DNA of 64,000 bases, taken from NCBI GenBank assembly GCA_023213395.1, contig CM041465.1, positions 124,937,741 to 125,001,740 of the forward strand, given 5' to 3'. Source of the DNA: Cycas panzhihuaensis. Its lineage: Eukaryota; Plantae; Cycadophyta. Both the position numbers and the translations under genes were made by a program. The notes beneath the pieces are model-generated. The model was not told the origin of the DNA and searched no databases. It saw only the letters and a list, made by a program, of their open reading frames with translations. Within the stretch, counting starts at the first letter, position 1. Each line of letters opens with the position of its first letter. This document shows positions 20,824-58,637 of this stretch, in pieces.

Positions 20824-20869
<46 letters not shown>

Positions 20870-33600: not shown

Positions 33601-33678
33601 TGCAAACACCTGCAACCGTCAATGTATGCAAACACCTGTAATCGTCAATGTATGCAAACACCCGCAACTGTCAATGTA
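33601..33678 (+). repeat. 26-bp tandem repeat x3 in the 5' leader of element F
   Basis: tgcaaacacctgcaaccgtcaatgta repeated three times. Confidence 0.9.
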
Positions 33679-33740
33679 CAAAATACAGTTAAGGATTCAA
33701 CGCTAATAAATATCAATGCGTACCGTTCAAATTCATAAGG

Positions 33741-33882
33741 GTGCAACACATCAAGACATCAGGCTGCACCGTGAACACATAAAGGCGCAACACAACACGA
33801 TATCACAAAGGGCGACTCAATACACGAAGAGTGTAATACATTAAGATATCATGCTGCATTGTGAATACGTAAAGGCGCAACA
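33741..33882 (+). repeat. ~52-bp direct repeat at 90-bp spacing in the leader of element F
   Basis: gtgcaacacatcaagacatcaggctgcaccgtgaacacataaaggcgcaaca versus gtgtaatacattaagatatcatgctgcattgtgaatacgtaaaggcgcaaca. Confidence 0.8.
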
Positions 33883-35838
33883 ACAGACACATATATACTA
33901 TCCCAAAGATTTAATAACATCGTAAAGATTCAAAATTATTAAATTGTGAGCATCCAGTTAAGGCATTTACAATGGCCATTGGGAGAAAAACAACGGCTGA
34001 AAAGGGGGCAACAATGACTGTAGATCATAAGCAGAGATTGAACGTTTCCCAGCAATCTCTCGTCGATCAAAACAATGCAAACGCAATCAGTCTGGATGTG
34101 GTGAAACGACAATATGGAAGAGATTAACCAGGCGACTTTAGATTTACATGGCTGAGTGGCAACGGGAACACAAAGCAGTCTTTTTGGGCAATCGAAGGAG
34201 AAGGCAACGAAGGGTATCAGAACACTACATTGAACAACCAAAATACTTCAAGTTTGATTGGCCAAATACAAACATTGAAGGAAGCATGGCTATCAACACA
34301 ACATACTGACATTCTACAACAATCTTCAAGTTTTCATAATGATGCAAGAACAGAGAAATAGATATAGGAATGCTGAGGAAAGATAGCACAACACTAAGAG
34401 TACAACAGAGTAAGAGATGAAAGAATATCATAAGGTACCTTTAAGAGAGACTGGATGAATTTGAATAGGGCATCTGCAACATCTTCAAGGTTGGTTCACC
34501 TTCAACTCTCTTCTCAAACATCCAACACAACTGAGAATAGGGCTACACCAACTCTACGCAACACCACACATCTACACGCTCCAACGATCTGTCAACACGA
34601 TCACAGCACCATGCGGTTCACCCGGCGGCAGCGTATAACCACGAGCTCTAATACCATGTTAAAAACGAGCACACTAGATTATTTATATCCACGCAAATCT
34701 AAGAAACAAGTACACAAGAAGATTTCGTGGGAAAACCCACATCAGAACACCGATTACATTGGAATCAAAAAGCATAAGAATACAAATGGTTTTTGAGTAT
34801 ATATAGATCCATAAGACCAAAAATATGCAAATGTCCTTTACATCCGTTGGCCCAAACAAATAATAAAAAGGTTTGCACACGATATTATATCACATTTACA
34901 TTAGTCAGGTGATATTTTAACAAGTTATGATGTAATTTTGGGAGTCTGAAAGAAAAAAAGATCATAAAGGTCATATATAAGTGACTACATAACTCAAGAA
35001 AGAGTGGGAAGAGTGGGGGTCTATAAGGTGGTCAACAATAAATTTGTATGTGTGAGTAACTTGGAGAAGTGCACTATACAATGAGAAGTACTTGGGGTTT
35101 GAGAATTGATTTAAAAAAAATGTTATGATTAGGACATGTTTGGTTGGATAATTAGGGATCTTAAAGAAATAAGAGGGATGTGGAATTAGTGATAGATGCT
35201 CTTTATGGGAAAGAGGTTTACATAGAGGTTCAAAGACCAGAGACAAGTTAGAGGGGGGAATTAATGGAAAAAAAGAGTATGGTTATATTGAGGTGTAGAA
35301 GGTTGGGACAAACATCATGATGTTTTATAAAAAGGCATGATCACATTAGGAAGATAAATTTGATGAAGGTAAGATGGAGGGTTTAGAACATGTTGCTAAA
35401 GAGATTTTGTAGGGGCAGAGAAATATGTAAAAGGTGGAATGAGTTAGGGTTGTGAAGATGGACTAAAATTTGTCTTACGAAAACCTTGGAATTAAGAAGC
35501 TTAATAGTTTGGACAACTATGGAGTAAAGAGGAGAGGATTTCTGTACAACTATTGAGGATGGAAATGAAAGAGGAAAGATGAAACTAGCAAAGGAAATGT
35601 GCATGTGCAAAACAAGATCAAGTACCTTGTGGAATTCACTTAGTTGCCTAACTTCTTTTTCTCCCTATTTAGACTCTTTCTAAGGTCCACATATCTTCAT
35701 CAGATCCTTTTTTTATTGCTCATCAACTCCATCATGTTGTTCCTACATAAGTTGTTTATTATAACACTCTACTTCAACCAATACTTGGTTAGATTCTTCA
35801 ACAAGATGCTCAATCTTCCCTTGCTTTTTGTCTTCAAT

Positions 35839-38800
35839 TACAACAATCTGATCCACAGAGTGCACACAAAGAACACCTTTAAAAGTATCTGGGAGCTCAA
35901 AAAATCTTTTATTATGGATTCAAAAGCACAATTGCATTAATAGAGCACAAGAAAACTTAATAATCACTAAAAAGATAGATGTATTTTTGTACAATCTCAA
36001 AAGACAATAAGATAGCATAAGTGTTCCTTTTACAATTGCTTGAGCTTACATAAGCAAAAATGACCGTTAACTCTAGCATCCTATTGGCGGCCCATTGGCC
36101 CTACAATCTCATTAGTGGAGATATGCGACTAGTGCACATGAATTAACAATTGTTCTTAACCTTCTCTTCCTTAATCATGTAGTTGTGGCTTTAGCCATTA
36201 CCTTCTCCATGTGATCAGATACTCTTGTGCCATTAACCTTGGAATGTTCCTTAACAGGCCCCCCTCCTTAAGACATTGAGTCCCCGAAGTGCTAAAAGTA
36301 CGAATGTTACTAGATAAATTCTTTTGACACCCATGTTGCTTCATCAGGGTCACAACGAGCCCACTACACTAAATACTCGAAAATGGTTCTACTCCAAAAA
36401 TAACGTCGATAAGAATCTAGAATGCCTATTGGAGGAATTATAAGAACTTCTTCTTCGTGGAGGATTGGTAGGTTTGTTTGTAGCTTTTTCAAAGTATTTC
36501 TTTAAGCAGGACACATGGAAAACATTGTGAATTTTAGAATCAGGGAAAAGGCCTAGAGCATAAGCGGCTTCCCCAATTCTTTGAAGAACTTTGTAGGGAC
36601 CATAATAATGAGGACACAGTTTGTGAGATTTCTTATCGTTGAGAGATTTGTTGCTTATAAGTTTGGAGATGAAGGAAGACCAAATCACCCACAACAAAGA
36701 CTCTCTCAAACTGGTGGTGGTTAGCCAATTACTTCATTCAATTTTGAACAGTTGTCAAGTTTTGCTTAAGAGTGTGTAAGATTTGATCCATGTCTTGAAG
36801 TTTTTGTTGTGCTCCCACATTTTGAAGATTAGTAATGAGTGTGTGGTGTGATGGTGGGGGATATCCATAAAGGGCCATAAATGGGATCATCCCAATAGAA
36901 AATTAATGGAAATAATTATACCAATATTTCGCTAATGCCAATTAGGAAGTCCAACATTTGTTATGGTCTAATACAAAACAATGCAAGTATATTTTCAATG
37001 TTTTATTGAGAACCTTTGATTATTTGTCTGTTTAGGGATGATATGATGAACTCATGTTAAAAGAAGTGTCAAATGCCCAAAAAAACTCTTGCCAAAATGT
37101 GCTTGCGAATTTTGGATCACGGTTAAAGATAATCGTGGATGGAAAGCCATGAAGGCGAATGATAAATTAGATGTAGAGATCAACTAGCTGAGGAGTTTTG
37201 TAAGTTATATGGATTAGTAAGAAATGAACATATTTGGTCAAGCGATTGATGATGACTCTAATTAAGTCATATATTGTAGATAATGGTAGCCCAGTAATAA
37301 AATCCATGGCAATGTCATGCCATTTAACCTGAAAAAATTTCAAGGGTTGAAAGAGGTCAGGTTAGAGTTTGGTCTCTACCTTATTTCATCAGCATGTTTC
37401 ATATTCTGAGACATACATAAGGATGGTGGACTTCATGTGGGGCTAATAGAAGTTTAATCGAATTCGGCAATATGTTTTGTCAAGCCCAGAGTGACTGTCA
37501 AGAAGGCTATTATGGTATTCGACTAGGATGCATGGGATGAATTGTGATGCTGGATGGACAAAAATACGATTGTGATATAGGTGATTATTACGTAGAGTCA
37601 TGTCTTTATGATGTTGGATTTTATTAGCCCATGTGGCAAAATCATCTTTGGATTCGTTATCATGGATAAGGTCTTCTAGCCAAGAGGGTTGGGGAAGGGA
37701 GATGGCTGGGTTTGCTAGAAGATAAGAGAGCATCAACAACGACATTATCCTTGCCTTTTTTATAAACGATGGAAAAGTCAAAAACTTGAAGTCTGTCAAC
37801 CCACTTGGCATGTTTCTCTGACATAACTAGTTGGTCTAATAGGCGTCAAAGGCTATGATGGTTTGTCAGAATGGTGAACATGGATCCAATCAGATATTGA
37901 AGCCACTTATCCATTACATGAAGAATAGCCCTCATTTCCTTTTGATATGTTAAAAGGTGACACTCCTGGTTTTTGAGTTTCTGGCTTCCAAATGCAATAA
38001 GATAGAAATTCGACATGAGAACAACTTATATCCCAACTCTACAGGCATCGCATTATATCAGGAGTGGTGAGCACTAGTGTAGAGGACATGAGCATTTTTA
38101 GGTGATTGAAAGCATCTACAATGCCAAGTGACCATTGAAATAGATATTTACATAGCAAAATTATTAGAGGGGTGATTATAGAAGCATATTTTTTGACAAA
38201 ACAACGGTAAAATATAATCAATCCAAGAAAAGCCCATGATTGTGTAAAGTCTTTTGGTGTGGGCCATTGAATGATAACTAGTATTTTGTCAAGGTCTTCC
38301 TGTATCCCTTCCATGGAGATGATATGCCCTAGGTATTATAATTTAGTTTTGCCAAATTCGTATTTGGACATTTTAACATACAATTGGTTTTGCTCAAGAA
38401 TTTGTAAGATGAACTCTTAGGTGTTGGACATGTAGCGCCATGGTAGTACCATAGATGAATATATCATCAAAGAAAACAAGGATGAATTTCTAAAGGTAGG
38501 TTGCAAAGATTTCATTCATTAGAGCTTGGAAGGTAGCAAGAGCGTTGTATAACCCAAAGGGCATGACCTAGAATTCAAAATGGCCATGGTGGGTTCTAAA
38601 GGTCATTTAATGCATGCCCTCTTGTGCTATAGGAATTTGATAATACCTTGATTATAAGTTTAGTTTTGAGAAAAGTGTAGCCCCATGAATTTCGTCCAAC
38701 ATGCCATCTATTCAAAGGGTCGAAAACTTATTTTTAATAGTGAGTTTATTAAGTTATCTATAATCGATGCAGAGCCGAAAAGAACCATATTTTTTCAAAC

Positions 38801-41800
38801 AAGTATAATAGGTTCGACATAAGGGTTCTTATTGAGTTGAATGATGCCCATATCCAAGAGTTTAGATGTGATACACTCAATTTCATTCTTTTGAAAATAC
38901 AAGCTTTGGCATTGTCATAAGTTGATGGGGTTGTGTGGGTGTTTTAATTCAATGATGTGGTGGAATCCATGATCTAGAAGAAGGCTTCCTAGTAGAGGAT
39001 TAAAAACAGACTCATATTTGCTAAGGACTATTTGGATACCTAGATGGGACCTCTGGTTGTGGTTGAACGTTACTGATTTGAACAATATAACCAAGAATCC
39101 CATTGGGTTGCTTACTCATTTGCTTAGGAGAGATTAGTTTATTTGGTAGGGACTAAAGATTATGCAATTTGTAAGTTTGTCCAAATTGGTCTTTAAACAT
39201 CATAAAAGAATTGTTGAGAGAGTTATTGGTATTATAAGTTCCAAAGGTTTAGAGTCATTCGATGTCTAGGGTATCTGAGCCCCCAATAGATAAGGCATAA
39301 AAGTTAGATCAGAGGTGATAAGTGCCAATTTGAGCTTGAAGATTTCGAATAACCCCCGCATAGTGAAGGCTATAGTGGCCAAATAGAGAGCAATTGAATC
39401 TTATTTTTGGTTCAATGTATAGGTTCAGTTGCTTGGCGACTACAATATTGAGGAAGTTCAGTGACACACCACCATTGATTAAGATTGTAATGGGGGTCCT
39501 CATCAATGTCCCTCTTATACGTAATGGGTTAGGGCAGGGAGAAGGAGAAACAACAAATACGAAAGGTTCAAAGGCGTGCTCAAATTCTAGTGGTGGAGGG
39601 GACTCTAGTAGAGGTTCTTTGTCAATTTCATCTTCTAAGTCAGAATCAGAGTTAATGGTAAATATTACTTTGCTTACTTTGCAAACTCTACTATGCTCGT
39701 TGAACCATTTTTTCGTGCACTGAGTGCAGAGCCACCGCCGTGCACCGAGTGCAGCCCACTCCCCTGCATGTGTGCCTTTGATGTGGAAACCTTTACTAAT
39801 GATTGTTCTGTTGATGAACGTTCTGTTGGTCATTCTACCAGGCGTTCTGTTAGTTGTCTCATGTAGTTGTATGTTCGAAACTGTGGCGGCATGTCCAGAT
39901 TTGATTGCCTTGGGCAATTGGACCATACTAATTCTCTTCTAAAACCAATTATTCGTTCTATCACAAATTCTATCTTCTCTGCCTTAATTGCATTGATAAC
40001 ATCCCTAAGGTTGGAAAAAGAGATGATCTTTAGCCTCATTTGTATACGACCTTTCAATCCAGTTATATAGGTTTTAATAAGTGTCTGTTTATCAAATGTT
40101 GAGTGACTTGATTGTGAATGGCTTGAAATTCATCGATGTATGCTTCAAGTGAGGTAGATTATCTTAACCAAGTTACCTGACTGAAAAATGATTAGTTCTA
40201 GGTTTCCTCATACTACTTAAAAAAACATTTGCAGAAAACATCCCATGTTTGATTTGCATGATACTCATTGGCCCACCATCTGTACTAGTGGTGTGCTTTG
40301 CCTTCTAAGTGAATGGAAGCAAATGCCAACGGATCTGCTTAAGACATCTGGTTAAGTATGAAGTATGAGTCAAACTTGTTGATCTAAGAACGAGCAACAT
40401 CTTTGTTGAAATCCAGATCAAAGATGAGTATATTGATTTTATGATTGAAAGTTTGTTGACGAATGAGCTATTGGCGAACAAATTAAAATCAATATACTAT
40501 GAAAGTATATAATTTTATGATTAAGACAGATAAGTTGTAAGAAAAAATATAGGATGGTGGGGCTTAGGGGTGCCTATATGCCATTTCCCCCAAAATTTAA
40601 CAGTTAAAATACACCTATTGAATCCTTGTCAACATGGCATGCTAATCAAAATAAGATAGGTGAAATTTAATGTCATTTTTTACATCATGGATGATTTTTT
40701 TCTTTATGACAATTGCTACAGTTTAGGTCATTTCAGATTCTAATAAGTATTGTTGAAGTTATTGCCTTCTCTTTGTAGGTTTATGATGCCAGGGACAGAT
40801 GAATAACAAGAAATCAACATACTCAATTTTGTTATATGAGTGGAACTTTCAGATCGTATGAGAACTACTAGACTCTAACACTAGGATTACTTGGATCTGC
40901 AGACCCTGTGATAAACATCTCTATCAATTATGTAACTCGGCCCAATATATTAGAGTACCACCTACAGAGGAAAGACTATTTCCGTAAAGTCTACAACCAT
41001 GTAGAGGTGTTCATGCAGAGTAACTTCTAGATGCTAACCACTAACCTGTACACTATAGAAGATAAACGACCAAAGGCTTACTTGTTATAAACAAGGAAGG
41101 GGAATCCTAAAAGGATTCCTCCTATATACTCGAAGGTATGTGGATACTCAATTCCATATACGAATTATGTTTCAACCTTGATTCAACAGAGTTAATTGAA
41201 GTCTTTCATGCAAGGGTTAACTAAAATCCTTCACGCGAGGACAAAAAAACCACAATGAGCTTAGCCTAGAACGATAAATCCTTCACAATATTTAAAGAAC
41301 CCCAACACAGAATCTCTACCTATGACAGGGAACTACCACACAAAGTTATCTATCCAGAAACTAAGGAAGGAGAGGGAGGGAACAAAAAGGATAAGTGACA
41401 AGCAATGTTGTCTACCATCTAACAAAAGTTAAAATGACAGAAATTAAAATTAAAAATGAGTTACGAGAGTCATCAAGGGAGGAGGGAGAAAATTTCCTTT
41501 TCTCTACTTTTGACTGCTCTACGGGGTTGTCGAACCTTACTCTAATACGACTTACAACAATTTGATCCACAAGTTGTGCATAAAGAACACCTTTGGAAGT
41601 ATCTGGGAGCTCAAAAGATATTTTATTATGGATTTAAAAATACAATTACATTAATGGAGTGCAAGAAAGCTTAATGATCACTAGAAAGATAGATGTATTC
41701 TCATACAATCTCAGAAGATAATAAAATAACATAAGTGTTTATTTTACTACTACTTGGCCTTATATAAGCAAAAATGGTAGCTAATTCTAACATCTTATTA

Positions 41801-41970
41801 GTAGCCCATGTGCCCTTCAATCTCATTGGTGGAGATATACAACTAATACACATAAATTAACAATTGTCCTTAACCTTCTCTTTCTTAATTATGTGACTAT
41901 GGTTTTAGTCTTAACTTTCTCCATGTGATCGAATGTTCTTGTGCCATTAACCTTGGAATGTTCCTTAACA
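35839..41970 (-). mobile_element. Full-length degenerate Ty3/gypsy chromovirus (element G)
   Basis: 418-bp LTRs 35839-36256 and 41553-41970; perfect TSD tcaat; PBS-like actctaatacga (41539-41550); PPT ggccccctcc; domain order gag-PR-RT-RH-INT-chromo. Confidence 0.93.
36290..40480 (-). pseudogene. pol: gag-pol remnant of element G
   Basis: CTQCTKKWFNEH and ILINGGVSLNFL (39309-39926); WPTPK...FLGL..FYRCFVKKYA (38039-38314); INT zinc finger H..H..G.DKTY (37443-37811); KLCPHYYGPY...IHNVFHVSCLK (36389-36709); EATW chromodomain. Confidence 0.92.
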
Positions 41971-43395
41971 TCAATCTTGATATGTTGTTGCTCCTGAATT
42001 GATTTCCCTTGATGCTCCTACAATGCTTATTAGATCCCTTTATCAACAATCAATTCTTCCTCTTTTATTGTCTTTTCACCTAGTTGCTTCAATTCTTTGG
42101 TAATTTCCTTGTATTAAATTATAGCATTGTCTTGAGTTGCATTCATTTCTTTGTCTTAATCCCACTAGAAAAACAGTATCTTAAAATATCTTTTAAATTA
42201 ATACCATTTATTAAATATTTTTGTTTTTTCAGACCAATCTTTAGACCATCGATGAGCTTGTCCCCAAACGGTATTAAATATTCTGTTTATAATCCTCGAA
42301 TTTTGTATCCAATGAAAGTCCACAATACATGTCATAATATTGAAGCATTTTTGTAGTTGTTATACCTTCCCCTGAGACAAATAGTTAAATATTTTGAATT
42401 TTTCGTATTGAGAATGCCTTTTGTTACACCTACTTTAGTAACATCATTCATTCTACCAAAGATTTTTCTTCCAACCAAGTCATCATTCTTTATTCTTTTC
42501 AACAAAAAATTTAATTTCATAGATTAAAACCTACATCAAGGATTGCTTAGAACTATATTATGCAACCATTTAAATCGATTGACTCTAAATTATGATTTTA
42601 GAGATTTTAATGAAATTGAAATTAAATTTTGCAACAAAAGTTATGTACACAAACGTCCAAGTACCCCCGTTTAAAAACAAAACAAAAATGATACAACTTT
42701 TTCTCCATTGATCCAAATTAATTGATTTATTTTCTTGAGTGGAAAGGACTTCAAAACATCTCCAATGAGCCAAGTTTAAAATATTTTGAAACTTTATAAC
42801 TCTTGTAGTGGCCCCCGTAAGTTGGATAAAAATTTTGAATTTTATAATAGTACTAGTGCCCTTCACTAAAATAGTAATAAATTTTGAATAGATCTCCAAA
42901 TTGATTTTTTTTTCTTTTTTTTGAGTAATTTATGCTTTAAGCCACACCAAATCCTTTTTAAAATATTAAAGTCATTTGAATACCTATAACGATTGTTATG
43001 GCCCTTTTAATATAGGTCACAATTAAGATTTCTATGGAGTGCATGAATATTTGTTACTAAATTGTTGATATAGATCTAAAACCACTTCCAACAGAAAGTA
43101 AACATTGAGACAAATAAAAAAATAATTGAAATTAATTGAACACTTATAATAAAAATTATGATCGTTTAAAGTTACAGTTGTAAATTTGAGTACCTAAAAA
43201 CAATAATGGACAACAAACCGAAATTAAATTCTTTGTAATTTTTGTATTTTTGCTTCAAAACTTACAATATAACCACTCAAAATTTGCAAATAGACCTGTT
43301 TGACTCAAAGTTATAGTTATCTTTTAAAAATTTTTCTGTTTATATTCCCGAAAATGCAAATCTTAGATAGACTAAAACAAAGCTCTGATACCGCT

Positions 43396-43904
43396 TGTGG
43401 TGATGCCCATCATTTATAGACAAAAAATATAATATTCACACCATAGATAATTTACAAAACATCATCATCATAAATAACAATCTATATCCACAGGAAATAC
43501 CACATAATAATATCAAATTAATATCAAACTTGCCACAATAGATAGTAAATATCAGATAAAATAAGAGTTAACATCTTGCCCTCTTCGAGGTGAAGGTTTC
43601 CTTCCAAAATGGCGCACATTACCTTAATAGTCCTAGGTCATTATTCTAGAACCAAAATATCAAATTTTTTAAAAGATGATTTATAAATGAATAAGGCTCC
43701 TCTATTTATAGCCTTATTTTCCCTATCTAAATCCAACTTCTAATTCTCTCTCCTCAAAATACTGACTTCATCTAATTTAGGGATGCAATAACTCTCTCTC
43801 CTAAAAATATTGACTTCATAATAATAAATATGCATTAAATAATTCTTCTTTTCTCTTCCTAAAAACCAATTTCACCAACTTCTTCGAAATTTAAGAAGAT
43901 AACA
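43396..43904 (-). repeat. 5' LTR of element E
   Basis: Follows the PBS; aligns with 28029-28548. Confidence 0.88.
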
Positions 43905-44089
43905 AAAAACATGTTTAAAAATTAAATGTAGCTCTTTTAAACAATATGCAAATAATTTCCAAGAACCCAACTTTAGGTTCCATGGGGATTTTAAACATTT
44001 TTGAAGGGTTGTTTAAGCCTTTGCGGTGCAAGGAAAAAGCAATGGTTCAAATTTCATTATGTTTCTTAACATTAAAAGCATTTCCACTT

Positions 44090-46543: not shown

Positions 46544-46648
46544 TTATCGAGCAGAAGCTCGAATTAATGGTTCAATAATCCCTTGCAGCTCTTGTAAAGA
46601 ACGCTGCAGTTGAAGCTCTCGAATTACTTTACCCCGGAGGAGTATAAT
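46544..46648 (-). CDS. Last coding exon of an unidentified host protein (IILLRGKVIRELQLQRSLQELQGIIEPLIRASAR*); exon extends to a donor at 46508
   Basis: Acceptor gtgttggtggcag|ATT; the only frame open for 34 codons, ending in TAA; donor AAAT|gtacgc 36 nt after the stop; CpG-containing, undecayed codons. Confidence 0.6.
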   Translation of the reverse strand: MILLRGKVIRELQLQRSLQELQGIIEPLIRASAR

Positions 46649-47009
46649 CTGCCACCAACACAAATGCACAACAGGTTAAATCGAAATGCGCCAATGGCCA
46701 CCTGGGGAAAATGCATGACAAATAAGTGTTGATGTTGATGTTCACAAACCAACCACTATGACTATGTAGGTTATGACAAGAATGAGCATGCAATACACAT
46801 CAACAAAATAAATCTAGCAATGCTAGGTGCAAACTCAAACCCATCATCCTTTTGTCTCAATACCCAGTCCATAAGATCATGTAGATTCAAGAGACATAAA
46901 TTACCTTGCCGCTTAATATGATAAAATAGACTATTCAATTACTAAGCCAAGAAAATTAACAGGAAAACCATGTTTGTGATCCTCAGACATTACAAAATCA
47001 GGTGCATAG

Positions 47010-47410
47010 ATCCTGTTTCCAATATAGCCTGGTTCAGCCATTGGTGCAGACTGGGCAAATGAGGTTTGCTCAAGCTAGAACCCAGGTGAACCTGGGTTCA
47101 TCTAGGCTGAACCCAGTTTAGTCGGGGTGTAGTGGGTTGGCTGAACCCAAGTCCCATTGCAGTTTTTCACCCAAAAACATAAACTAACCCTAACTCACTA
47201 CCACACAAACCCTAAACATAATTAGTATAATTCTACGATGTTTATTAGCAAATTTCAATGGTATAATTATCTAATATTTTCTTCATGTCCCACACACCCT
47301 CCCCTCTTAAATATATTTATCATACCCATCCCTACAACCCTGAGTTTGGAGGGCCGAACTGGATTCCCTGAGCCCCATTTCTACTAAAACCCGGAATATG
47401 GTAACCTTAA
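47010..47410. mobile_element. MITE or non-autonomous hAT-like element in the intron (boundaries approximate)
   Basis: Repeated gaaccc/gggttc subterminal-type motifs including the hairpin gaacccaggt-ga-acctgggttc; AT-rich core; ends ...atggtaacctt. Confidence 0.4.
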
Positions 47411-47581
47411 AAACAGAAAGCATTCGCAATAATTTCAATTTGTATGATACAAGTCACATTTCAAGGGATATTAACATTTGCTAAAAAGGGTTTAGCCTAC
47501 AGCATAAACAAGACTACTGCTTTTAAGCATAATAGAGACGGAAAATCTGTTTATGTTTATCTGCTCGAAACCAGGATGTGC

Positions 47582-47983
47582 TGTTAGATTTTCAACAAGG
47601 AGAGCATTCAACATCAAAACAAAGCCACAAGACCAATGAACAAAGCATAAATTGTATAAACTCAACTCAAGGATGATTACATCATAATACTATTGCACCA
47701 TAGACTCAACATGAGTCTCCATGATGACTCGATAACTACTCTACCTCAATCACCTATTTATTCATCATAGGTGGGAATACATAAGTGAGGTGGAATGCAT
47801 GTGGGACAAAGACTGTTAACCTACCCAATTACACTTCACCTACTAACTGACCAATGACCTAACTTCTCACATAATTCACATTATAATATATGACTCTTAG
47901 ACCCTAACATAATACTTAGGACTATACATTAATGACTTTAAGACACCATGACACTTGATTACATTAAACATTATCTTCTAACA
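47582..47983 (-). repeat. 3' LTR of element I
   Basis: Aligns with 51286-51688. Confidence 0.95.
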
Positions 47984-48050
47984 CCTCCCCTTAATGTTTA
48001 ATGTCAAGACTGTACAAAACTGATTACCAAAGACAACATGACACTTATTA

Positions 48051-49560
48051 CTAAGGATTGACAACAAAACTGATAAAACCTAATATAAGACTTGACTTGA
48101 AGCATTGTTTGAATTTCCAACGCCTAAGTCTAGGAACCTTTCTGAAGACGATGTCATAAACTTGATCTTTGACTAGAATGCAACGAAGTTTGTATGACAT
48201 GTCTGTTCTATCATCCTCTACTTCTTGCTTGGTGACTCCTCCTTTGTCTGACTGTTTTGACTGCATGTGTGATTCCTTTCCAAGATCAACATATGATTTG
48301 GACTTGACGATTTCCATGAAAGGAAAGAGATTTGTTTCCAAGACAGCGAGTATGATCAACTCTTCGAACAAATAAGCATTCTCATGAAAGGTAAGAAAAG
48401 ACAATGATTTTTTTTCCTATCACCACTTGTGCAGGTACTTGTCCTGAATCAATAAAATACTCTGTTTTTCCTTCATCAACCAAGAGATCTTTTGTTGTAC
48501 CAGATATGATGTGGATTTCTGTTATGTTCACATGAACATACCTCCCAGTTATGGTTACATAAAAGTAGTACAATATCTCAACATAATTGCCTTTCTTGAC
48601 TAAGTAACTTGCCCAAAACATAAAACAATCTTGGTGGACAAGATTTTGTCCAAACAACATTCCAATTGTGTCCTTCTCACTTTGAATGAATCTTCCAGAG
48701 CCATTGCAGGATATGTTACCATAATTTGAATTTTTTCAAGGTTAAGAGCAAACAATGCTCCCAAATTGAATTGGATCATACAAAGTCTTGTGCATGTGCA
48801 TACAACCATGTGACCTGTCATCATTTGGAACTTGGTAACACATTTATCAACACAAATTAAGGTTATCTTACCCAAACTTTCCATCAAAGTAGTTGTGTCT
48901 CCATGATGGACCACCTATAAAAGATGATGTCTGAAGTCACTTTCAATGTCCATTCTTTCAACAATTTTCAATGCAGTTTTTCCTGTCAACATATTGAAAC
49001 TCAAATTCTTCTCAATCTTCGAATCTTCAATTTTATCTACTTTCTCAGATTTCAAAAGGTGATCATCAGACTCACCAGAATCAACCTGATTATTTGCATT
49101 CCCCCTTTTCGCTTTCCTCTTTAGCTTCGTTTTTTGGTTATTGGTTAGGTTGTTGTACATAGCTTGTTCTCCATGAGTAACCTTCTTTTCTACTTCATTT
49201 TTGTTACCTGCAACACAAATTTTATGTCTTTTCAAGAGCCTCTTGTACCTCTTGGGGGCTCTTTTCATATGCATCTTTTAGCAAACTCCAAGCTTCTTTA
49301 GCAGAATTAGTATTCTGAAGTGTATGAAGGAGGAAATGGTAGGAAGAAGGAAGATTTTCCTTGTCAAAGGCTGCAAGCATTACATCAATAGCTACTTTGT
49401 TTTTCTTTTTGAAAAGTTCCTCTCCTTCTTCATTAATCAAAGCAGTACCAAGAACAATTTTCCATAGTCCTTTAGCCATAAATATGCATTCCATTTAAAT
49501 TTTTCAAATTTGAAAAGTAGTTCCAACATATTTAGGCAAGACTATGTTACTTTCTATTAT
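48051..49560 (-). pseudogene. gag: Copia gag (UBN2-like) / protease / RNase H C-terminal remnant, with INT-RT deleted
   Basis: MECIFMAKGLWKIV...SAKEAWSLLKDAY (49222-49494); YFIDSG (~48450); KDQVYDIVFRK, resembling DQVADIFTK (~48150). Confidence 0.75.
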
Positions 49561-50109
49561 CCAAAATTCATTGTTCTCTGATACAAAAATAATAACATCA
49601 TTCAACTCCATGATGTATGAATACACCCACTTCAACTTGAAATAGACCTATTAAATCTATATAAAAAAGCCTCAAATTACATACCAACACGTCCCCCTTT
49701 GAAGTACGATTCCAACGCCACTGACTGTTTTGAAAAATGTGCAAAAATCTGTTTTTGAATAATAAATTCGAGTCATTAAGGGATTAATCCCTTGGTATTA
49801 AGTCATGTTAAGGTTTAAATAACCAAACACTTAACCATTAAGGGCTTAGCAAAACTCAAAACATATTTCACCTTGCAAATATTTTTAAATCTACCTCAAT
49901 AGTCTTCACGTCCACAAATTTGGGAGTTTAATTTAATCAAAAATATCTTATTCTCAATATCAAACCCTAACTGTGACCTGTGTATGTGGCAATGGCACTT
50001 CTTCCGTTCGAAGATCCAACAAGCGCGAGCCAAAGCATTCCGGAGAAGATGATATGTATGAAAATAATTGTTGTCCATGGGTCAAAGCCGAGGAGTTCTA
50101 GTTGGAAAT

Positions 50110-50313
50110 GGACTACGCTTGATTCTCAGTAAAATACTCTTCCATTCACTTCTTCGATAGCATCCCTCATGGCTTGCTCATCAACAAATGTTACAAATCC
50201 AAATCCACAGGATCTTCCAGTCTCCTAGTCATTCACGACCTTCAAACCTGTCACTTCACCAAAGGGCCTAAAAGCTTGCTCTAAGTTCCTTTGTATCCAA
50301 CGCCCCCACAACA
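50110..50313 (-). pseudogene. Captured, intron-less RRM fragment of a glycine-rich RNA-binding protein (AtGRP7/GRP8-type)
   Basis: Reads RNLEQAFRPFGEVTGLKVVND*ETGRSCGFGFVTFVDEQAMRDAIEEVNGR, then TENQA*S; compare GRP7 RALETAFAQYGDVIDSKIINDRETGRSRGFGFVTFKDEKAMKDAIEGMNG...TVNEAQS. Confidence 0.9.
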
Positions 50314-50504
50314 GAAACCATTGTCATCAACTACTCTGGACTAAGCGCCTCGATCGTCAAGGCATGCTAACGTACAAGGGTCAAGAGAAGCCCTGCCAAG
50401 GTCATGCGAATGTGGGGATTCGAAAACGGTCAGAAGGGTGTCACGAGTTCGAATCCCATTCTCTCTGGGATTTCTTTCACTGCAGCTGGCGCTTTGCTTG
50501 CCTC

Positions 50505-50751
50505 TTCTTTGCTCTTCACCCCCGTTATCTTCTTCATCTTATATTTCTCAACATAGGCAGTGATCTCTATGCTATAGAGAACCACCCTTCCAATTTTTGA
50601 TGTTTATACGACTGCTTCTGCTTGAGCCAGATGAAGCCAATCTCCTTCACATATCCAGATTCCACATGCTCTTTGAGGGAAGCAGACCCTTAGGCAAGCC
50701 TAATTCTTCCAAAAGCTCCACAGATTTCTGGTAATAGATCTCAACACCTTG
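50505..50751 (-). pseudogene. Captured DUF538-family gene fragment
   Basis: GVEIYYQKSVELLEELGLPKGLLP / KEHVESGYVKEIGFIWLKQKQSYKH / KIGRVVLYSIEITAYVEKYKMKKITGVKSKE (two frameshifts); matches the DUF538 motifs LP.GLLPL, GF.WLKQK and EITAYVE...TGVKSKE. Confidence 0.88.
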
Positions 50752-51285
50752 CAGTTGTGGCCTCTCTTTTCCTCACACACAAAAATCTTCTAATACTAGG
50801 TAACCAATACACAATGGAGAATGTGATAGCAGGTTTGGATACTGATTGCTAAGAAATCTTCACTTCCACGCCTTTTTCAGATGCGAGCAACTGACTTTTC
50901 TATGTATCCAGTGGTTTTATCAACTGTCCAATAGTGGATGACGTCTCTTCCATAACTGGATTCATACAGTTGCTTTTCTTCATAACTGCAACTCTAAGGA
51001 CGACATCCTCTACTCTGAGCAGCCAGCAAAGACATCCACCAATTATAGCTTCTCTGAAGTTTCTCAACCCGTAGGTTAGGATTTCATAGACTGATTTCTT
51101 CAAGAAACCCTTAATACTTTAAACACAATCCTCAAGGTCTTAACTCTCATGGTCAAGAGAAAACTAATCAACAATTCCTTCACAAATATCAAGCAAAAGA
51201 CTTCATAAAGCCGTACCTCCTTCCTTGTCGAAAATTTGGTGAACCTGCACACAACACCCTTAATAGTCAACTTGCTCTGATACCA

Positions 51286-51688
51286 TGTTAGATTTTCAAC
51301 ATGGAGAGCATTCAACATTAAAACAAAACCACATGATCAATGAGCAAAGCATAAACTGTATTAACTCGACTCAAGGATGATTACATCAGAATACTATTGC
51401 ACCATAGACTCAACATGAGTCTCCATGATCGCTTGATCCCTACTCTACCTCAATCACCTATTTATACATCATAGGTGGGAATACATAAGTAAGGTGGGAT
51501 GCATGTGGGACAAAGATCGTTAAACTACCCAATGGCACTTCGCCTACTAACTAACCAATGACCTTCTAACTTCTCACATAATACATTATAATATATGACT
51601 CTTAGACCCTAACATAATACTTAGGACTATACATTAATGACCTTAAGACACCATGACACTTGATTACATTAAACATTATCTTCTAACA
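51286..51688 (-). repeat. 5' LTR of element I
   Basis: Adjacent to the PBS; aligns with 47582-47983. Confidence 0.95.
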
Positions 51689-51828
51689 TGTGCTAGAACA
51701 AGCAATGATTTAAAAAACTGAAAAAAAATATGAGCAGGGCCATCGAAAACAAGAATCAATAGAACAAAGAAATTGGCATGAGGAAGTGGCATATAAAAAA
51801 CCAGTGAAAATAGGAACTCCATACTTAC

Positions 51829-51869
51829 TTTTTCTAACTCTTCAATCACTTTAGAAAGGATAAAGGAAA
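51829..51869 (-). CDS. Candidate penultimate coding exon of the host gene (xSFILSKVIEELEK); acceptor uncertain
   Basis: Acceptor gccttctctag|TT and donor AAA|gtaagt; splices in frame to 46648, giving ...VIEELEK-IILLRGKVIRE.... Confidence 0.4.
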
Positions 51870-52353
51870 CTAGAGAAGGCATGGATATGTGCTCAAAAAT
51901 TAAAATATGCTTCCAATCAATGACGGTAACGTTGACAACAATTTTGATATCATAGAAATGCACTGTAGCATTACCCATCCCAGAGGTGCATTTTAGAACT
52001 TTGCACTAAAAGTTTCTAGTATTTTTGTCTATCACCAAACCACTGTGTAGCCATATACTCCTTTAAAGGGTGTTGTACCTATATCTGATGTACCCCATAT
52101 ACTAAGAGACCACATGGATACACCATGGATATATATCTTGGCCATACCCCATATCTAGGCTATACCAAAGTTTGTATCCAAGCCATATGTTAGATTGTCA
52201 TTGGTCATCATATCCAGAATACTTTTAGCATATCCTAGAATACTCCAATAAGATACGGCCCATAAAAAGGCGAAGAAATCAAAATGTGATCTTTATTGAT
52301 TAAAAAAAAGGGAAAAACAAAAAAGAAAAAAAGACATTTATAAGTTTTTAAAA

Positions 52354-52441
52354 TAGCTCCAAATTTGTTTATTATCTTATTTTCAAATTTAATGTATGTC
52401 ATATACTTATTTTCATATGTATATATATTTCTATATATTTT
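52354..52441 (+). repeat. 88-bp direct repeat flanking element H (second copy 58228-58315)
   Basis: tagctccaaatttgttt...ctatatatttt on both sides of H, with few substitutions. Confidence 0.9.
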
Positions 52442-55120
52442 TGCACACCCACATTCTTTCTCAGTGACATAACATTGTGACTTAAGGGTTAACATGACCC
52501 TTATGCACTTCTGCTCACTTGAGAGCCTAAAAGGACACGTCCTACATGCAAAGAATGTAGCTTGGATGTTTGACACTTGTCAAACATCTAGCACCTTAGG
52601 TCTCTTCTGTAACTCTATATATTGAGACCACTTCTCATGTATCTCATACAGTGTTTAAGTTGTATTGTTATACTGCCAATTTGCTAATCAAACTGATATT
52701 CATTTGAAGATTGGACCAATTCCATCTCCTCCACATTTTGGTATCATCTTGCTCATGCTTTTTCATGTTTAGTCTTTTATCTTGTTTACTTGATTAACCT
52801 TTCATTCTTAAGTGTTGATCTCTTTGATTCTAGAACTAGAGTTGAACATTCTTCTAGATCCTAGTTATTGTAGGCTAAATGCCATTTTCAACATTTGGTA
52901 TTAGAGCAGTAGAAGGATGTTCCTCTCTGTTTTGATTTCTTGCTTTCAAGAAGATCTAGTTAGAGTTTACAAACCCTTGGTGACGACCTTCACTCTCCAA
53001 AGGCGATCCAAGGTTTGTTTAAAGCATTTTCTGCAGTCCATCAACATTTTGGAGGTATTTTGCAACCTGAAGACTGTTTATATTGTGTTCTGAATTTTTT
53101 TTCTTAACACACTTTGTTGGGTGCAGCACTAATTGCTGCATTAGAACAAAGTTTTCTTTGTAAAAGGATTTATTTTTCAAGTTTTTTTATCACAATCTGT
53201 GAAATACAAGTAAGTTTAGTCTCAGATCTGCTTGTTTTTAGGCTTGAAGTACTTACCAAGTCTTAGATCTACTAGCTGAGACCATAGATCTATTGATTTC
53301 AACTCACTTGGCAACTGCTCTACCTTGAGATCCACTCCCTGTAGTGGAAAAATCTCTTCTTTTATGTTTGTAGACTACTTTGGGCTTGAAGCTAAGCCAT
53401 ACAAAGACGGCACTTAGCCTCTGCAGTGCTCCTCGGAGTAAGCTCTCAAGACTTTGTCTGTTGGGTGTACCCTCAAAACCCCTGGGAGCTCAAATCTTCA
53501 GTGTAGTTTTGTTTATGCATTTTGCTCTTCACTGGAGGTTAGCCATCATCACTTCGGGTCCCATGTGACCTCCGTAAAGTTGTATGACAACCCTAAGAAG
53601 TCGCACGACTCCTCTGATCATCCGCAGCTCGTGCGCCCTCCATCACATTCAACTGCTCCATTCTTCCTTTGTATGCAATGACATTATGTGAAACTTGAGT
53701 GAAGGCTTCATTGGAGGGGTGAGATCCAACCTGTGAAGTTTCAGACTAATCTGAGTAGCAAGGAAGAAATCCGATCAATCTCTGCGTGTTTGTGTGCCAC
53801 TCTTCACCTTCATTCGACCTGCGTTCACACTGCATACATCGAAAGTATGTGAAGAGACCACTTAAAATTATCGTACAGTCATTTGGAAGCCAAACCTAGT
53901 GTTAGTTTTTAGATCTGATCAATCGTTGGTATGAAAATTTGACTTATAACAACATGTTTCTTCGAAAATTTTTGTTTTCTAACTTTAAGTTATAAACTTA
54001 GGATATGAAAATTAGAATATTCTCTTTTTAATATATTTTCATTTCCTAATGTTTGTCTTTTAAAGAGTCATTTAATTGATACTTTATCAATTAAAAGATA
54101 TTTAATCACTTGTTTTAAATTTTTGAAGTCACTTTACACAAAATAATTTGCATTTGTATTGTGTGACCCATCAAATGATTTTTAAGTCACTTTCATTATT
54201 GTAAAATTAAAAAATCACCTTTTTAAGAGTTTTATTAAGGCTCCCTGCGTGGTGACCTAGTGCCCTAAGTTCAAAAAGGGGCTCAAAAATCACCTTTTTA
54301 ATAAAAAGGTCACTCTTTTTCGTGACTGATTAAGACTATTTTAAGTCCTAACACTTGGTGCCTAGTGCCTACATTGCAAAGTGATTCTTCTCTCATCTTC
54401 AAGTGATTATTTTCTATTAAAAAGAACCCACTTGAAGCATCCTCACTAGGAGGTTCATCATTTTTATTTGGGTGCTTAACACTTCTTTGATCTTTTGAAA
54501 AGTGTTTTCTTCTTAAACACTTAATGTGTTATATGTGATGTACTTAAAGTTTTTACTTGGATATCTTTAGCACTTTTTCTCACTTCTTTAAGTGTTGTGA
54601 AACACTCAAAGTGTTATATTTGATGTACTAAATTGCTTCTTCTTGAAGCCACATTTGTAAAATTTTAAGCATTCATTTTTCAAGTACATCATCCAAATAA
54701 AACTCATCTAAAGTAAACTTGAACACTCTTAAAAAGTATTTTAAAATCTAGTGGGAGAGGCCCGAAAAAGGTTCAAACCTTGCCTCTGAATTAGCCTTAA
54801 GCTTGGTGCATTCTCTAGGAGACCAACCAACCGTACGGTCAGTGCATAACAATTAAGATTTCTTGAGGGAAAGGAGATTCGAAAAAGGTGTTATTGGGGT
54901 TGTGAATCCTAGGGAAAGTATGGTACACCCATGCAGATCAACCCTACCTGCCTTTTCCTAGATTTGACTTAGTCAACCATTGAATCTCATTTATAGATTA
55001 GGGTTGGGCCAACTCAATAGCCTAGTCCTCCACCCCTCATCATTCTATTCAATTGTTAGATCTTTTAGTAAGATCAAGACTGTTGGCTTGTTAGAAGGTG
55101 GAACATAAGCAACGAAAGCT

Positions 55121-57883
55121 TTGAGTCTCCAAGTTCATCTGCTAGCCTTAAGACTACACAACTTCAACATGCCTGCTTTAAACATGCTCAACGCATGTAC
55201 CATAAAATTAACAGGTCAAAATAATTATCAAGAATGGAGGAAGAAAACACAAAACCTATTGATAATGAATGAATTTTGGGGTTATGTTTCTGGAAAAATT
55301 CCCCAAGCTATACCTGTGGAAGATGATGGTATTGTTGTTCATCCAAATCCAGTTTATGTTGCTACTTGGGAATCCAAGGATGAAATTGCCTTGGCTTTCT
55401 TACATATGATTATTGATGTTCATGTTGATGAGAATATTGTGTGTGCAAAGACTTCAAGGGAAGCTTGGGACACTTTGTCCTCATTGTATGAAAGACGAGA
55501 TAAAGCTTGCATTATATTGGTGAAAGCAAAATTTTATTCTTTAAAATTTATCAAGCCTATGTCGTCTTTTTTATTTGTCATCAAAGAAATTTATAATGAA
55601 TTAAATACATTAAGCAAACCAGCTTCCAGAAACGAGTTTGTAACGACAATTATCCATGCATTGCCTAAGGATTATAATGAATTTATATCATCCATTACAC
55701 GAGATGGCTCACTTTCAAGTATGTCCTTCAATCAACTTGAAAGTTTGTTACTTCAAGAGGAGCAAATTTATATCAACGAAGATGATAAGCCATCCACATC
55801 AGGAGCATTCATGGCCAAGTTGAAGGCCAAGCAAGGTCCCAAACCTTCACTCACAAAACAATTTGGGAATATAAACATTGGCTCATCAAAGGCCAATGTC
55901 ATTTGTCATTATTGTGGCAAAGTTAGCCACATAGCTCCTGAATGCAAAAGGAAGCAAGCCGATCTCCAACACACATGGCAAGAATTGTGTCAAGAACATC
56001 GAGGCGAATGACCTCATCAGTAGTTCTAACAACTGTAACACTTTCAGCAACAGCAACCGCATCGACCAAATTAAGGTGCATATTGAGAAGGTCAAAGAGG
56101 AAGGGGGGGTTTCAGAGGTGGTAATCAACGCTACTCCAATCAATTTGCATATGAGGATAAGCTCTTTTGTGCTTATCACACACCAGATGTTAATCAAACA
56201 TGGATCATCGACTCAGGAGCATCTCGTTATATGATAGGGAGTGAAAAACTCCTCTATGACATCAAAGAAGGAAAGGATCGATCAATGACCTTTGGAAACA
56301 ATGAATTAGTTCACATATCAAGTATAGGCAAAATTGCCTCATTTCACTCTCCTTCAAATCCCTCTTCTACATTTTTCACTAGAGATGCCTACCTAATCCC
56401 TTCCATGGAGAAGAGTTTTCTATCTGTTAGCCAACTGAACAAGCAATAGATGAGCATTTTAAAAATGAGAAATGTGTCATTAGTGACAAGTATGATCAAG
56501 TTGTAGCCATTGGTCAGGAAGACCATGGACTTTATAAGATGGATGTTAATAATATAACCCTTGATTCTGCTTACTCTGTCACTCAATCATTGTCAAAGAT
56601 GCAACTTTGGTATCAATGTCTAGACCACTTAAGCTTAGACAATGTCAAGCTAGTGATGAGCAAAAACATGGTGCATGGGCTTCCAAGACTGTATGGTTCA
56701 AAATACCTTTGTGAAGCATGTATAATGGGGACACAACATCGATTGTCTTTCCCTAGAGGCAAAGCATCGCATGCGTCATATCCTTTGCAGTTGATACATT
56801 CAAATCTATGTGGACCTATGTCCACGACATCCTTTGTAGAAGCATTGTACTACATCTCCTTCATAGATGATTTCTCTCACAAAGTTTGGGTCTACTTCAT
56901 CAAATAAAAATCTGAAGCATTCCAAAAGTTTAAAGAATTCAAACTTGAAGTGGAGAATGAATTTGGCCATTCAATCAAGATTCTAAGGTCAGATAATGGA
57001 GATGAATTCACTTCAAAGGAATTTATCCAATTCTGCAAGGATAACGACATTCATAGACAGCTAACCATTCCTCATACTCCTCAACAAAACGCAGTTTCCG
57101 AACGGATGATCAGAACTTTGGCAAAGAAAGCCAAAGCCATGATGCATGCAAGAGGACTAACATGCACATATTGGGCAGAAGCATTCCCCACAGCTGCCTA
57201 TGTGGCAAATCAGAGTCTTACATCAACAATTGTCGACATCACACCAAAGGAGGCTTGGTCTAGCAAGAAGCCTACCGTCAATCATTTAAAACATTTGGGT
57301 GCACTGCATATATGCACATCCCCGATTAGCAAAGAGCTAAGCTAAATAAACATAGTCTAAAATGTATTTTTGTAGGCTATACCATTCACAACAAGGCATA
57401 CAAATTGTATGATCCTGTTGGTAAGAAAATGCATCTCTCAACAGATGTAATCTTAGTTGAAGATGAACACAAGGAGTTGGAATCAACATCCATCCAACCT
57501 CCTCTTAACAAAGGCAAAAAGATTGTTGAGGACTGACTTCCTTCTCAATCTTCAACACCATGTACATCATCTGCACCAGCTAATCCTTCTACTTCATCAG
57601 AATCTGCTCCACTTAATCCCAGCACATCTTCTGTTGATTAACCACTCTAACTAGAAGATCTTGAGGTGCAAGTCACATCAGTTAAAAAGTTGCCCAAATG
57701 GTATACTCAGACTGTTCAAGACAACGAAATCATTGATAGAAAGCGTCCATCAAAATATCAACAGTAAACCAATTATGCACTTATGGCTGAAGTGTTACGT
57801 ATTGATGAGCCTTCCACTTTTGAGGAGGCATATGAAAATGAAAATTGGAAGACTGCCATGGATGAAGAAATTCATTCTATTGA
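55121..57883 (+). pseudogene. gag: Copia gag-PR-INT and RT start of element H
   Basis: 296-aa gag ORF (KLTGQNNYQEW...CHYCGKVSHIAPEC); WIIDSGASRYM; LCEACIMG...HSNLCGPM...FIDDFS; LRSDNGDEF...TPQQNAVSER. Confidence 0.93.
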
Positions 57884-57985
57884 ATTGTATTGTTATGCAT
57901 TGTATTGCCAGAATGTTATGCATTGAATTGTATTGGCAGAATGTTATGCATTGAATTGTATTGTTATGAATTCTAATAAAAATTC
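57878..57985 (+). repeat. Templated filler DNA at the deletion junction of element H
   Basis: Iterated attgaa/ttgtattg/ttatgc/gccag units copied from both sides of the junction. Confidence 0.8.
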
Positions 57986-58637
57986 TGTTTAAGTTGTATT
58001 GTTATGCTGCCAGTTTGCTGATCAAACCGATATTCATTTGGAGATTAGACCAATTCCATCTCCTCCACATTTTGGTATTATCTTGCTCATGCTATTTCAT
58101 GTTTAGTCTTTTATCTTGTTTACTTGATTAGCCTTTCATTGTTAAGTGTTGATCTCTTTGATTCTAGAACTAGAGTTGAACATTCTTCTAGATTGTTGTT
58201 ATTGTAGGCTAAATGCCATTTTCAACATAGCTCCAAATTTGTTTGTTATCTTATTTTCAAATTTAATGTATGTCATATACTTATTTTCATACATATATAT
58301 CTTTCTATATATTTTATATGTAGTAGATTTTGATCCAGGGCACTTGGAATGGTTGAGGGATGGCTCCAGGGACGGTGGACAGTTGAAAGCCCAGAAGAAA
58401 TCAAGTATTCCAATAAAACTAGTGAAGTGACAATTAGTGGACAGTTTTGGAACAGTTCCAATATGCAAGGGACAATTGTAAGCCACAATACCAACTCTCA
58501 AGGAATGGTTCCAAAGCACCTCAACGACAGTTCAAATTGCATCAGAATGGTTGTGGAACGGTGGATGGTTCTTGGGACGGTTCAATGCCTAAGAGCCAAG
58601 CATCATGATTTTAAGGACATACAAATGTACCCAACAA

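What the first reader, a model, noticed from the sequence alone, without database searches (positions are those of the whole stretch)
47582..51688. Gene-capturing non-autonomous LTR element: a Bs1-like mosaic of host mRNA fragments inside a host intron
Seen: intact cis elements (paired TG...CA LTRs, perfect iMet PBS, PPT, perfect tgtgc TSD); only gag, PR and RH-tail remnants; and, between the PBS and gag, sense-strand DUF538 and GRP-RRM fragments separated by unidentified blocks. Known: maize Bs1 is an LTR element carrying pieces of several host genes, and retroviruses capture host sequence by RT template switching. Inference: this family captured at least two unrelated host transcripts and then transposed as a unit. 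It could be a source of chimeric transcripts or of siRNAs targeting the parent genes.
Basis: partly seen in the sequence, partly recalled or inferred. Interest (0 to 1): 0.85.

Follow-up and report, generated by a model that had tools for sequence, protein, structure and literature searches.

The report
Gymnosperm retrotransposon carrying two host fragments
This is a decayed copy of a crippled jumping gene, lying just upstream of the last exon of a gymnosperm ribosome-assembly gene (likely inside its intron), that carries broken pieces of two unrelated host genes, likely picked up from their RNAs and likely re-copied a few times; this kind of capture is already known and is common in gymnosperms.

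Summary
Mostly real, but a known kind. 47582-51688 (minus) has 402/403-bp TG..CA LTRs (K2P 0.068), a perfect 5-bp TSD, an iMet-type PBS, a PPT and a broken copia-type gag. The claimed protease and RNase H remnants were not supported. Between PBS and gag lie sense fragments of a DUF538 gene (50505-~50772) and a glycine-rich RNA-binding protein RRM (~50108-50322), both with stops or frameshifts; three other blocks stayed unidentified. A contig from a probable RNA run matches the DUF538 piece at about 89% and runs on where the element switches sequence, so a parent exists. Public DNA contigs show an abundant LTR/gag backbone, a scarce cargo, diverged sibling contigs that share the RRM junctions, and the same insertion under three species labels. 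No poly(A) or convincing TSD flanks the cargo. The element lies 934 bp upstream of the last exon of UTP15 (83% identical to Ginkgo). Best reading: stepwise template-switch capture into the leader of a non-autonomous copia-type family, then limited re-transposition. Sibling TSDs, intron loss and expression were not shown. Unlike Bs1 there is no chimeric ORF. Such capture is reported as widespread in gymnosperms.

The parts
46544..46648 (-). Last coding exon of a host UTP15 (SLOW WALKER1-like; that name is recalled) gene, AG acceptor before, TAA at the end
   Evidence: Pfam UTP15_C E 0.0097, profile 123-147 of 147; 83% identical to residues 496-530 of the 530-aa Ginkgo protein Gb_10217, tblastn E 1.7e-11, the only hit in the window; context
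47577..47581 (.). Target-site duplication, left copy (TGTGC)
47582..47983 (-). 3' LTR, 402 bp, TG..CA
47984..47992 (-). Polypurine tract
   Evidence: sequence
47993..49221 (-). Degenerate family backbone downstream of the recognisable gag; no PR, INT, RT or RH detected; abundant in related genomes
   Evidence: no domain; summed contig depth about 1,300-8,700 in the bins 48007-49212 of X1, X2, X3
49222..49560 (-). Broken copia-type gag remnant
   Evidence: Pfam PF14223 E 2.4e-6; 0 of 500 shuffles
49561..49736 (-). Family leader next to gag; most family contigs part from this copy at 49736
   Evidence: loose ends at 49736 in 14, 24 and 23 contigs of X2, X3, X4
49737..50107 (.). Block C, unidentified, scarce (AT-rich part 49737-49960, GC-rich part 49961-50107)
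   Evidence: no Pfam, Rfam or tRNA hit; no protein hit in the one frame searched; composition
50108..50322 (-). Captured fragment of a glycine-rich RNA-binding protein gene (RRM), with an internal stop; outer limits approximate
   Evidence: Pfam RRM_1 50129-50290 E 2.7e-14; PDB 2mpu, 4c7q; contigs of the RNA? run X24 over 50159-50289
50323..50504 (.). Block B, unidentified, 52% GC, scarce
   Evidence: no hit; fold z -0.19; composition
50505..50772 (-). Captured 5' part of a DUF538 gene, frameshifted (lacks 1 nt near 50676 and 7 nt near 50597 against the parent-like contig); sharp 3' junction at 50505; 5' limit between 50749 and about 50772
   Evidence: Pfam PF04398; X24 contig of 967 nt laid over 50505-50749 with 26 other letters and 8 gap letters, running on unlike at both ends
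50773..51273 (.). Block A and PBS-proximal leader, unidentified, intermediate abundance from about 50860 upward
   Evidence: 7-15 contigs per run show differences at 50970-51081; only a chance hit in the representative search; none
51274..51285 (-). Primer-binding site, tRNA-iMet type (assignment from established knowledge)
51286..51688 (-). 5' LTR, 403 bp, TG..CA
51689..51693 (.). Target-site duplication, right copy (TGTGC)

Best explanation
This is a decayed, non-autonomous copia-type LTR retrotransposon whose leader holds broken pieces of a DUF538 gene and a glycine-rich RNA-binding protein gene, likely captured step by step when reverse transcriptase switched onto co-packaged host RNAs, and likely re-copied a few times with enzymes borrowed from other elements. 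Shown: the cis signals, the absence of detectable pol, the identity and sense orientation of the two pieces, a parent-like DUF538 contig, the scarcity of cargo against the backbone, sibling contigs with shared joins, and the same insertion under three species labels. Inferred: RNA-level capture by template switching, mobilisation in trans, that the siblings are separate insertions, and that the site is a UTP15 intron. This copy is likely inert since it inserted, about 15-47 million years ago depending on the rate used.
For: (1) Intact integration signature, no pol domain. (2) Both pieces are partial and sense; at 50505 the element switches sequence while the parent-like contigs of X24 run on (loose ends at 50505 and 50506), as Tan et al. 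describe for LTR-mediated retrocopies (PMC5131818, passages). (3) Longest A or T run within 40 nt of six block ends is 5, and the only exact repeats flanking five block definitions are single 6-7-mers or none. (4) Backbone versus cargo: 8-96 contigs per run show listed differences at 48185-49517, against 0-8 at 50024-50798 (the 40 rows shown of 706); 14, 24 and 23 contigs leave this copy at 49736. (5) Diverged siblings bridge RRM|B by at least 31 letters each side: X2 contig 50196-50407 (28 other letters) and X3 contig 50221-50521 (40 other letters, no gap), beside near-identical, probably orthologous contigs (10, 8 and 6 other letters). (6) A deletion variant joins RRM directly to block C: joints 49997/49987 to 50151/50152 in 3 contigs of X2 and 1 of X3, plus a 5-contig loose end at 50152 in X2 that resembles block C by eye; a 9-nt word is shared at these breakpoints, reached by 6 of 1850 random pairs. 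(7) The left insertion junction is bridged in X1, X2 and X3 (7 of 500, 9 of 379, 6 of 391 other letters) and the right one in X3. (8) The RRM runs without a break across the site where, by my recall, angiosperm GRP7-type genes have their first intron.
Against: No full sibling element or second TSD was seen (no genome held), so segmental duplication is not excluded. The B|DUF538 join is not bridged by the tool's 31-letter rule: four contigs end 15-17 nt into DUF538. Intron loss is unproven: the intron position is recalled, and a DNA contig of X3 (50137-50290, 28 other letters, unlike on both sides) also crosses that site without a gap, so intronless or processed GRP copies exist as DNA and could have been the donor. 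Microsimilarity at the capture junctions themselves could not be tested; the 9-nt word marks a later deletion. Sense orientation of 2 of 2 pieces has a 1-in-4 chance. Joints were read at 80% likeness, where repeats can mislead. Summed contig depth is not a copy number. More than half of the leader is unidentified.
Confidence: 0.7

Rival explanations
1. DNA-level capture: breaks in the element's leader were repaired by copying short genomic stretches (intronless genes or processed pseudogenes) as filler, and the filled element then transposed.
For: An intronless GRP-like DNA contig exists in X3. DUF538 gives no intron test here. Blocks A, B and C have no protein match and could be non-genic DNA. 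Microhomology deletions also fit DNA repair.
Against: Both identified pieces are coding and sense to the element's RNA, with parent-like contigs in a probable RNA run. They cluster in one leader of a family that replicates through RNA.
Confidence: 0.17
2. A ready-made mosaic (Pack-MULE, Pack-CACTA or Helitron piece, or a LINE-made retrocopy) inserted into the leader and was then carried along.
For: The scarce zone has a fairly sharp edge at 49736. A 7-nt word flanks 49737-50860. Old TIRs or poly(A) could have decayed.
Against: No inverted repeat of 20 nt or more has both arms in the cargo zone (0 of 16 pairs). No poly(A). Abundance rises in steps on the PBS side rather than at one edge, and siblings differ in block content (joints 50020 to 50451 and 49954 to 50428; an X4 contig with block A that runs on unlike below 50805), which fits stepwise change better than one insertion.
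Confidence: 0.08
3. The mosaic has been kept for a function, as a chimeric transcript or protein like Bs1, or as a source of small RNAs acting on the DUF538 and GRP parents.
For: The insertion persists under three species labels. In Platycladus 19.81% of captured fragments were transcribed and donors were more methylated (PMC13477047, section 12).
Against: Both pieces carry stops or frameshifts; the longest ATG-started sense frames (119, 94, 92 aa) lie in the backbone, none in the cargo. About 11% difference from the DUF538 parent leaves few long perfect matches for 21-24-nt RNAs. Orthologous contigs differ by 1-3%, like the flank, with no sign of extra conservation.
Confidence: 0.05

Closest known systems
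Maize Bs1 (seen through PMC13317346 and PMC5131818, passages; the original papers PMC2899935 and PMC160511 were not held)
   Same: Plant LTR element holding partial pieces of several unrelated host genes; few copies that share switch points (Bs1 1-5 copies across Zea).
   Different: Bs1 forms a chimeric gene that is transcribed and translated; here no ORF spans the cargo and both pieces are broken. Two identified donors, not three. The cargo lies upstream of gag.
LTR-mediated retrocopies (Tan et al. 2016, PMC5131818, passages)
   Same: Partial host pieces flanked by element sequence, no poly(A) or own TSD, several parental genes, secondary copies, insertion in or near genes.
   Different: There the retrocopy replaces part of the internal ORFs; here it sits in the PBS-gag leader. 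Junction microsimilarity was not testable here.
TR-GAG and other gag-retaining non-autonomous LTR elements (PMC13570524, passages)
   Same: About 4 kb, LTRs, PBS, PPT and gag but no RT, RH or INT; abundant family.
   Different: The gag of this copy is broken, and it carries host-gene cargo, which the passages read do not mention.
TE-captured exon fragments in gymnosperm giga-genomes (PMC13477047, passages and section 12); LTR-captured genes of rice, sorghum, maize (PMC3726574, passages)
   Same: [quoted passage not shown]
   Different: Those are bulk surveys; I did not see this family or these donors named in the passages read. Their supplements were not opened and may list them.

Membership tests
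LTR retrotransposon, Ty1/copia type | Paired LTRs with TG..CA ends and a 4-6 bp TSD | tested here: met
LTR retrotransposon, Ty1/copia type | PBS inside the 5' LTR and PPT before the 3' LTR | tested here: met
   iMet assignment from established knowledge
LTR retrotransposon, Ty1/copia type | Copia-type gag | tested here: met
   PF14223 E 2.4e-6
LTR retrotransposon, Ty1/copia type | pol in the order PR-INT-RT-RH (needed for autonomy and for lineage assignment) | tested here: not met
   no pol domain in 6 frames; PR 47 of 500 and RH 80 of 500 shuffles at best. So non-autonomous; the superfamily rests on gag and PBS only
TR-GAG | gag present, RT, INT and RH absent, multi-copy | tested here: met
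TR-GAG | Retains a gag ORF | tested here: not met
   the recognisable gag is open for only 90 codons stop to stop; other family copies not seen whole
LTR-mediated retrocopy (Bs1-like) | Partial pieces of host genes between the LTRs, with identifiable parents | tested here: met
LTR-mediated retrocopy (Bs1-like) | No poly(A) tail or own TSD at the cargo | tested here: met
   decay over tens of millions of years weakens this test
LTR-mediated retrocopy (Bs1-like) | Loss of parental introns | tested here: inconclusive
   RRM continuous across the recalled intron site, but the parent gene structure was not seen and an intronless DNA contig exists; PMC9051487 passages confirm a first intron in AtGRP7, not its position
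LTR-mediated retrocopy (Bs1-like) | Microsimilarity between parent RNA and element at the fusion points | not testable with these tools
   needs full parent mRNAs and an empty sibling leader; no genome held
LTR-mediated retrocopy (Bs1-like) | Secondary copies with the same switch points at different insertion sites | tested here: inconclusive
   diverged contigs share the RRM|B and RRM|C joins; their insertion sites were not seen
Bs1 itself (chimeric gene) | One chimeric ORF, transcribed and translated | tested here: not met
   no sense ATG frame of 92 aa or more in the cargo; stops and frameshifts

The most novel reading that the evidence does not exclude
The abundant gag-only family is a 'Pack-LTR' family: its PBS-to-gag leader is a swappable cargo bay in which different sub-lineages carry different host RNA pieces, added and pruned step by step, so that one family has scattered many different host-gene mosaics through this gymnosperm lineage, as Pack-MULEs do in grasses. 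Hints: most family contigs leave this copy at one place (49736), block abundance falls in steps, and siblings differ in block content.
Probability: 0.3. Interest if true: 0.55.

Novelty: new member of a known kind. Interest (0 to 1): 0.35.

Why it matters
If right, it is a clean, datable gymnosperm example of multi-gene capture by a non-autonomous LTR element, with siblings that record the order of gains and deletions. That makes template switching versus DNA-repair capture testable in one family once a genome is at hand. It does not change what is known: capture of this sort is reported by the hundred thousand per gymnosperm genome, and nothing here shows a function. It would matter more if the family's leader proves to be a general cargo bay.

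Tried and rejected
No genome was held, so no genome-wide BLASTN. PR and RH remnants: rejected as unsupported. Block B as tRNA, SINE head or structured RNA: ARAGORN 0 genes, Rfam 0 matches at E<=1 over 47000-52500, fold z -0.19 with 75 of 200 shuffles as good. Protein searches for unidentified blocks covered only some frames: block B one minus frame, 0 of 131 candidates; blocks A to C one minus frame, 0 of 1244 candidates of 222-709 aa; block A another minus frame against 1.84 billion representatives, 1 hit, a four-fold tandem-repeat protein judged chance. Plus-strand frames were scanned only with Pfam. The ESM Atlas did not answer, so block C was not examined by features. Sibling loci in metagenome contigs: 0 matches for two LTR motifs. 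No other copy of the element in the window. PDB search with the 33-aa DUF538 piece: 0. None of these blanks is used as evidence on expression. The 7-nt word at joint 50020/50451 is not beyond chance (78 of 1850). Earlier findings: none by sequence or place. Literature searches were made; I did not search for this family or these donors by name, so I make no claim that it is absent from print.
Full report
Observation. The element is on the minus strand. Its LTRs are 51286-51688 (5', 403 bp) and 47582-47983 (3', 402 bp), both TG..CA, with 374 matches, 16 transitions, 10 transversions and 5 gap columns; K2P distance 0.068, SE 0.014. TGTGC flanks both ends, the PBS TGGTATCAGAGC follows the 5' LTR directly, and a 9-purine tract precedes the 3' LTR. 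With the two gymnosperm rates quoted in PMC9364684 (passages; 2.2e-9 and 7.3e-10) the insertion dates to about 15 or 47 million years. A copia-type gag remnant lies at 49222-49560 (Pfam E 2.4e-6; 0 of 500 shuffles against one of two window gags tried; the other gave 62 of 500). A very decayed remnant cannot be excluded.

Cargo. Between PBS and gag, in sense orientation, lie a DUF538 piece (Pfam E 2.6e-5 and 0.015 in two frames) and an RRM piece (E 2.7e-14) whose best single-domain PDB matches are RBP1 (2mpu) and an RNA-binding glycine-rich protein (4c7q). The order from the 5' end is block A, DUF538, block B, RRM, block C, family leader, gag. Blocks A, B and C stayed unidentified in the frames searched. 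In run X24, whose RNA status is a guess of the tool, a 967-nt contig lies over 50505-50749 with 26 other letters and 8 gap letters and runs on unlike at both ends; a second contig parts at 50506; short contigs cover the RRM at 50159-50289. So the DUF538 piece has a parent-like sequence about 89% identical and a sharp junction at 50505. Both pieces are broken, and no sense ATG frame of 92 codons or more falls in the cargo. No A or T run over 5 and no convincing flanking repeat was found at the block ends.

Family structure from public DNA contigs. I laid 6 of the 24 listed runs; about half of each large run was read. Summed depth, which the tool says is no copy number, is 1,300 to over 90,000 on the LTRs and backbone but 5-59 over 49816-51021 in X1, X2 and X3. 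In the 40 difference rows shown, 8-96 contigs per run carry a listed difference at 48185-49517 and 0-8 at 50024-50798. At 49736, 14, 24 and 23 contigs of X2, X3 and X4 leave this copy for another sequence. The degenerate backbone is therefore an abundant family, and this cargo marks a minor sub-lineage. Block A from about 50860 upward is intermediate (7-15 contigs per run at 50970-51081).

Siblings. Beside near-identical, probably orthologous contigs (6-10 other letters), X2 and X3 each hold a contig 13% diverged that bridges RRM and block B (50196-50407, 28 other letters; 50221-50521, 40 other letters). Four contigs of different identity end at 50519-50521, 15-17 nt into DUF538, and an X3 contig starts at 50493; this suggests, but does not show by the tool's 31-letter rule, that the B|DUF538 join is shared. 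A deletion variant joins the RRM at 50151/50152 to block C at 49987/49997 (3 contigs in X2, 1 in X3, plus a 5-contig loose end in X2); the breakpoints share a 9-nt word, reached by 6 of 1850 random pairs. In X4 two joints skip the RRM (50020 to 50451, 49954 to 50428; what lies between is not known), and one contig holds block A but runs on unlike below 50805. These fit stepwise gain and loss. No sibling's insertion site was seen, and joints read at 80% likeness can mislead.

Site. The left junction is bridged in X1, X2 and X3 (species labels A, B, C; 7 of 500, 9 of 379 and 6 of 391 other letters) and the right one in X3 (19 of 624), so the insertion is older than the split of those samples' lineages. 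934 bp downstream on the same strand lies the last coding exon of UTP15 (46544-46648), 83% identical to the end of Ginkgo Gb_10217. No other exon of that protein is in the window, so if the gene is whole the element sits in an intron of at least 17 kb; introns over 20 kb are common in gymnosperms (PMC9364684). That the host is a gymnosperm is inferred from this match and the repeat-rich window.

Mechanism. Most likely (0.7) a gag-only, pol-less element packaged host RNAs, reverse transcriptase supplied in trans switched templates onto them and back, and the product was copied again a few times before this copy inserted and decayed. This is the model of Tan et al. (PMC5131818, passages). The element anatomy, the donors, the scarcity of cargo and the shared joins are shown; the RNA step, trans-mobilisation and separate sibling insertions are inferred. 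Against it: intron loss is unproven, because the GRP intron position is my recall (PMC9051487 passages, confirm only that AtGRP7 has a first intron) and an X3 DNA contig crosses the site without a gap. DNA-repair filling (0.17), a nested ready-made mosaic (0.08) and retention for function (0.05) are the rivals.

Comparison and novelty. It works like Bs1 and other LTR-mediated retrocopies, but lacks Bs1's chimeric ORF (Bs1 seen only through PMC13317346 and PMC5131818 passages). Its backbone resembles TR-GAG elements (PMC13570524 passages) though this copy's gag is broken. A 2026 survey reports about 400,000 captured fragments per gymnosperm genome, 13.68% of carrier TEs with two or more, and shows copia examples (PMC13477047, passages and section 12; supplements not opened). 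Rice, sorghum and maize have hundreds of LTR-captured genes (PMC3726574, passages). Verdict: a real, new member of a known kind; interest 0.35. The boldest open reading, a family whose leader is a swappable cargo bay, has probability 0.3 and would deserve 0.55.

Noticed in passing
window 47993-49560: The backbone is nearly unrecognisable as protein-coding yet is very abundant in related genomes, so the family seems to have spread in a pol-less, degenerate form; its helper element is unknown.
   Followed up: partly
window 46544-46648: Only the last coding exon of UTP15 is in the 64-kb window; the upstream intron would exceed 17 kb and is filled with copia-type elements.
   Followed up: partly
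window 49963-49971: A telo-box-like AAACCCTAA on the plus strand at the edge between the AT-rich and GC-rich parts of block C; block C may be an antisense-captured promoter or 5' UTR (motif recalled, not tested).
   Followed up: no
window 50425-50465: Block B holds two inverted GTTCGAATCC/TTCGAATCC-like words resembling a tRNA T-loop; ARAGORN, Rfam and folding gave nothing.
   Followed up: yes
window 50738-51118: One minus-strand frame of block A has only 3 stops in 127 codons, which hints at old coding sequence, but no relative was found.
   Followed up: partly
window 4057-9560, 28029-43905, 28904-34922, 35838-41970, 52652-58228: Five further direct-repeat pairs (80-95% identical) that look like LTR pairs; two of them lie inside the 28029-43905 pair, a nested stack. 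Exact termini and TSDs were not resolved.
   Followed up: partly
window 50137: A contig of X24 parts from the window copy here and, read by eye, continues the RRM with a few more codons; the window copy seems to have a short internal deletion between repeated words.
   Followed up: no
window 20826-20866: (AT)20 microsatellite; seven other short tandem-repeat rows elsewhere, none inside the element.
   Followed up: no
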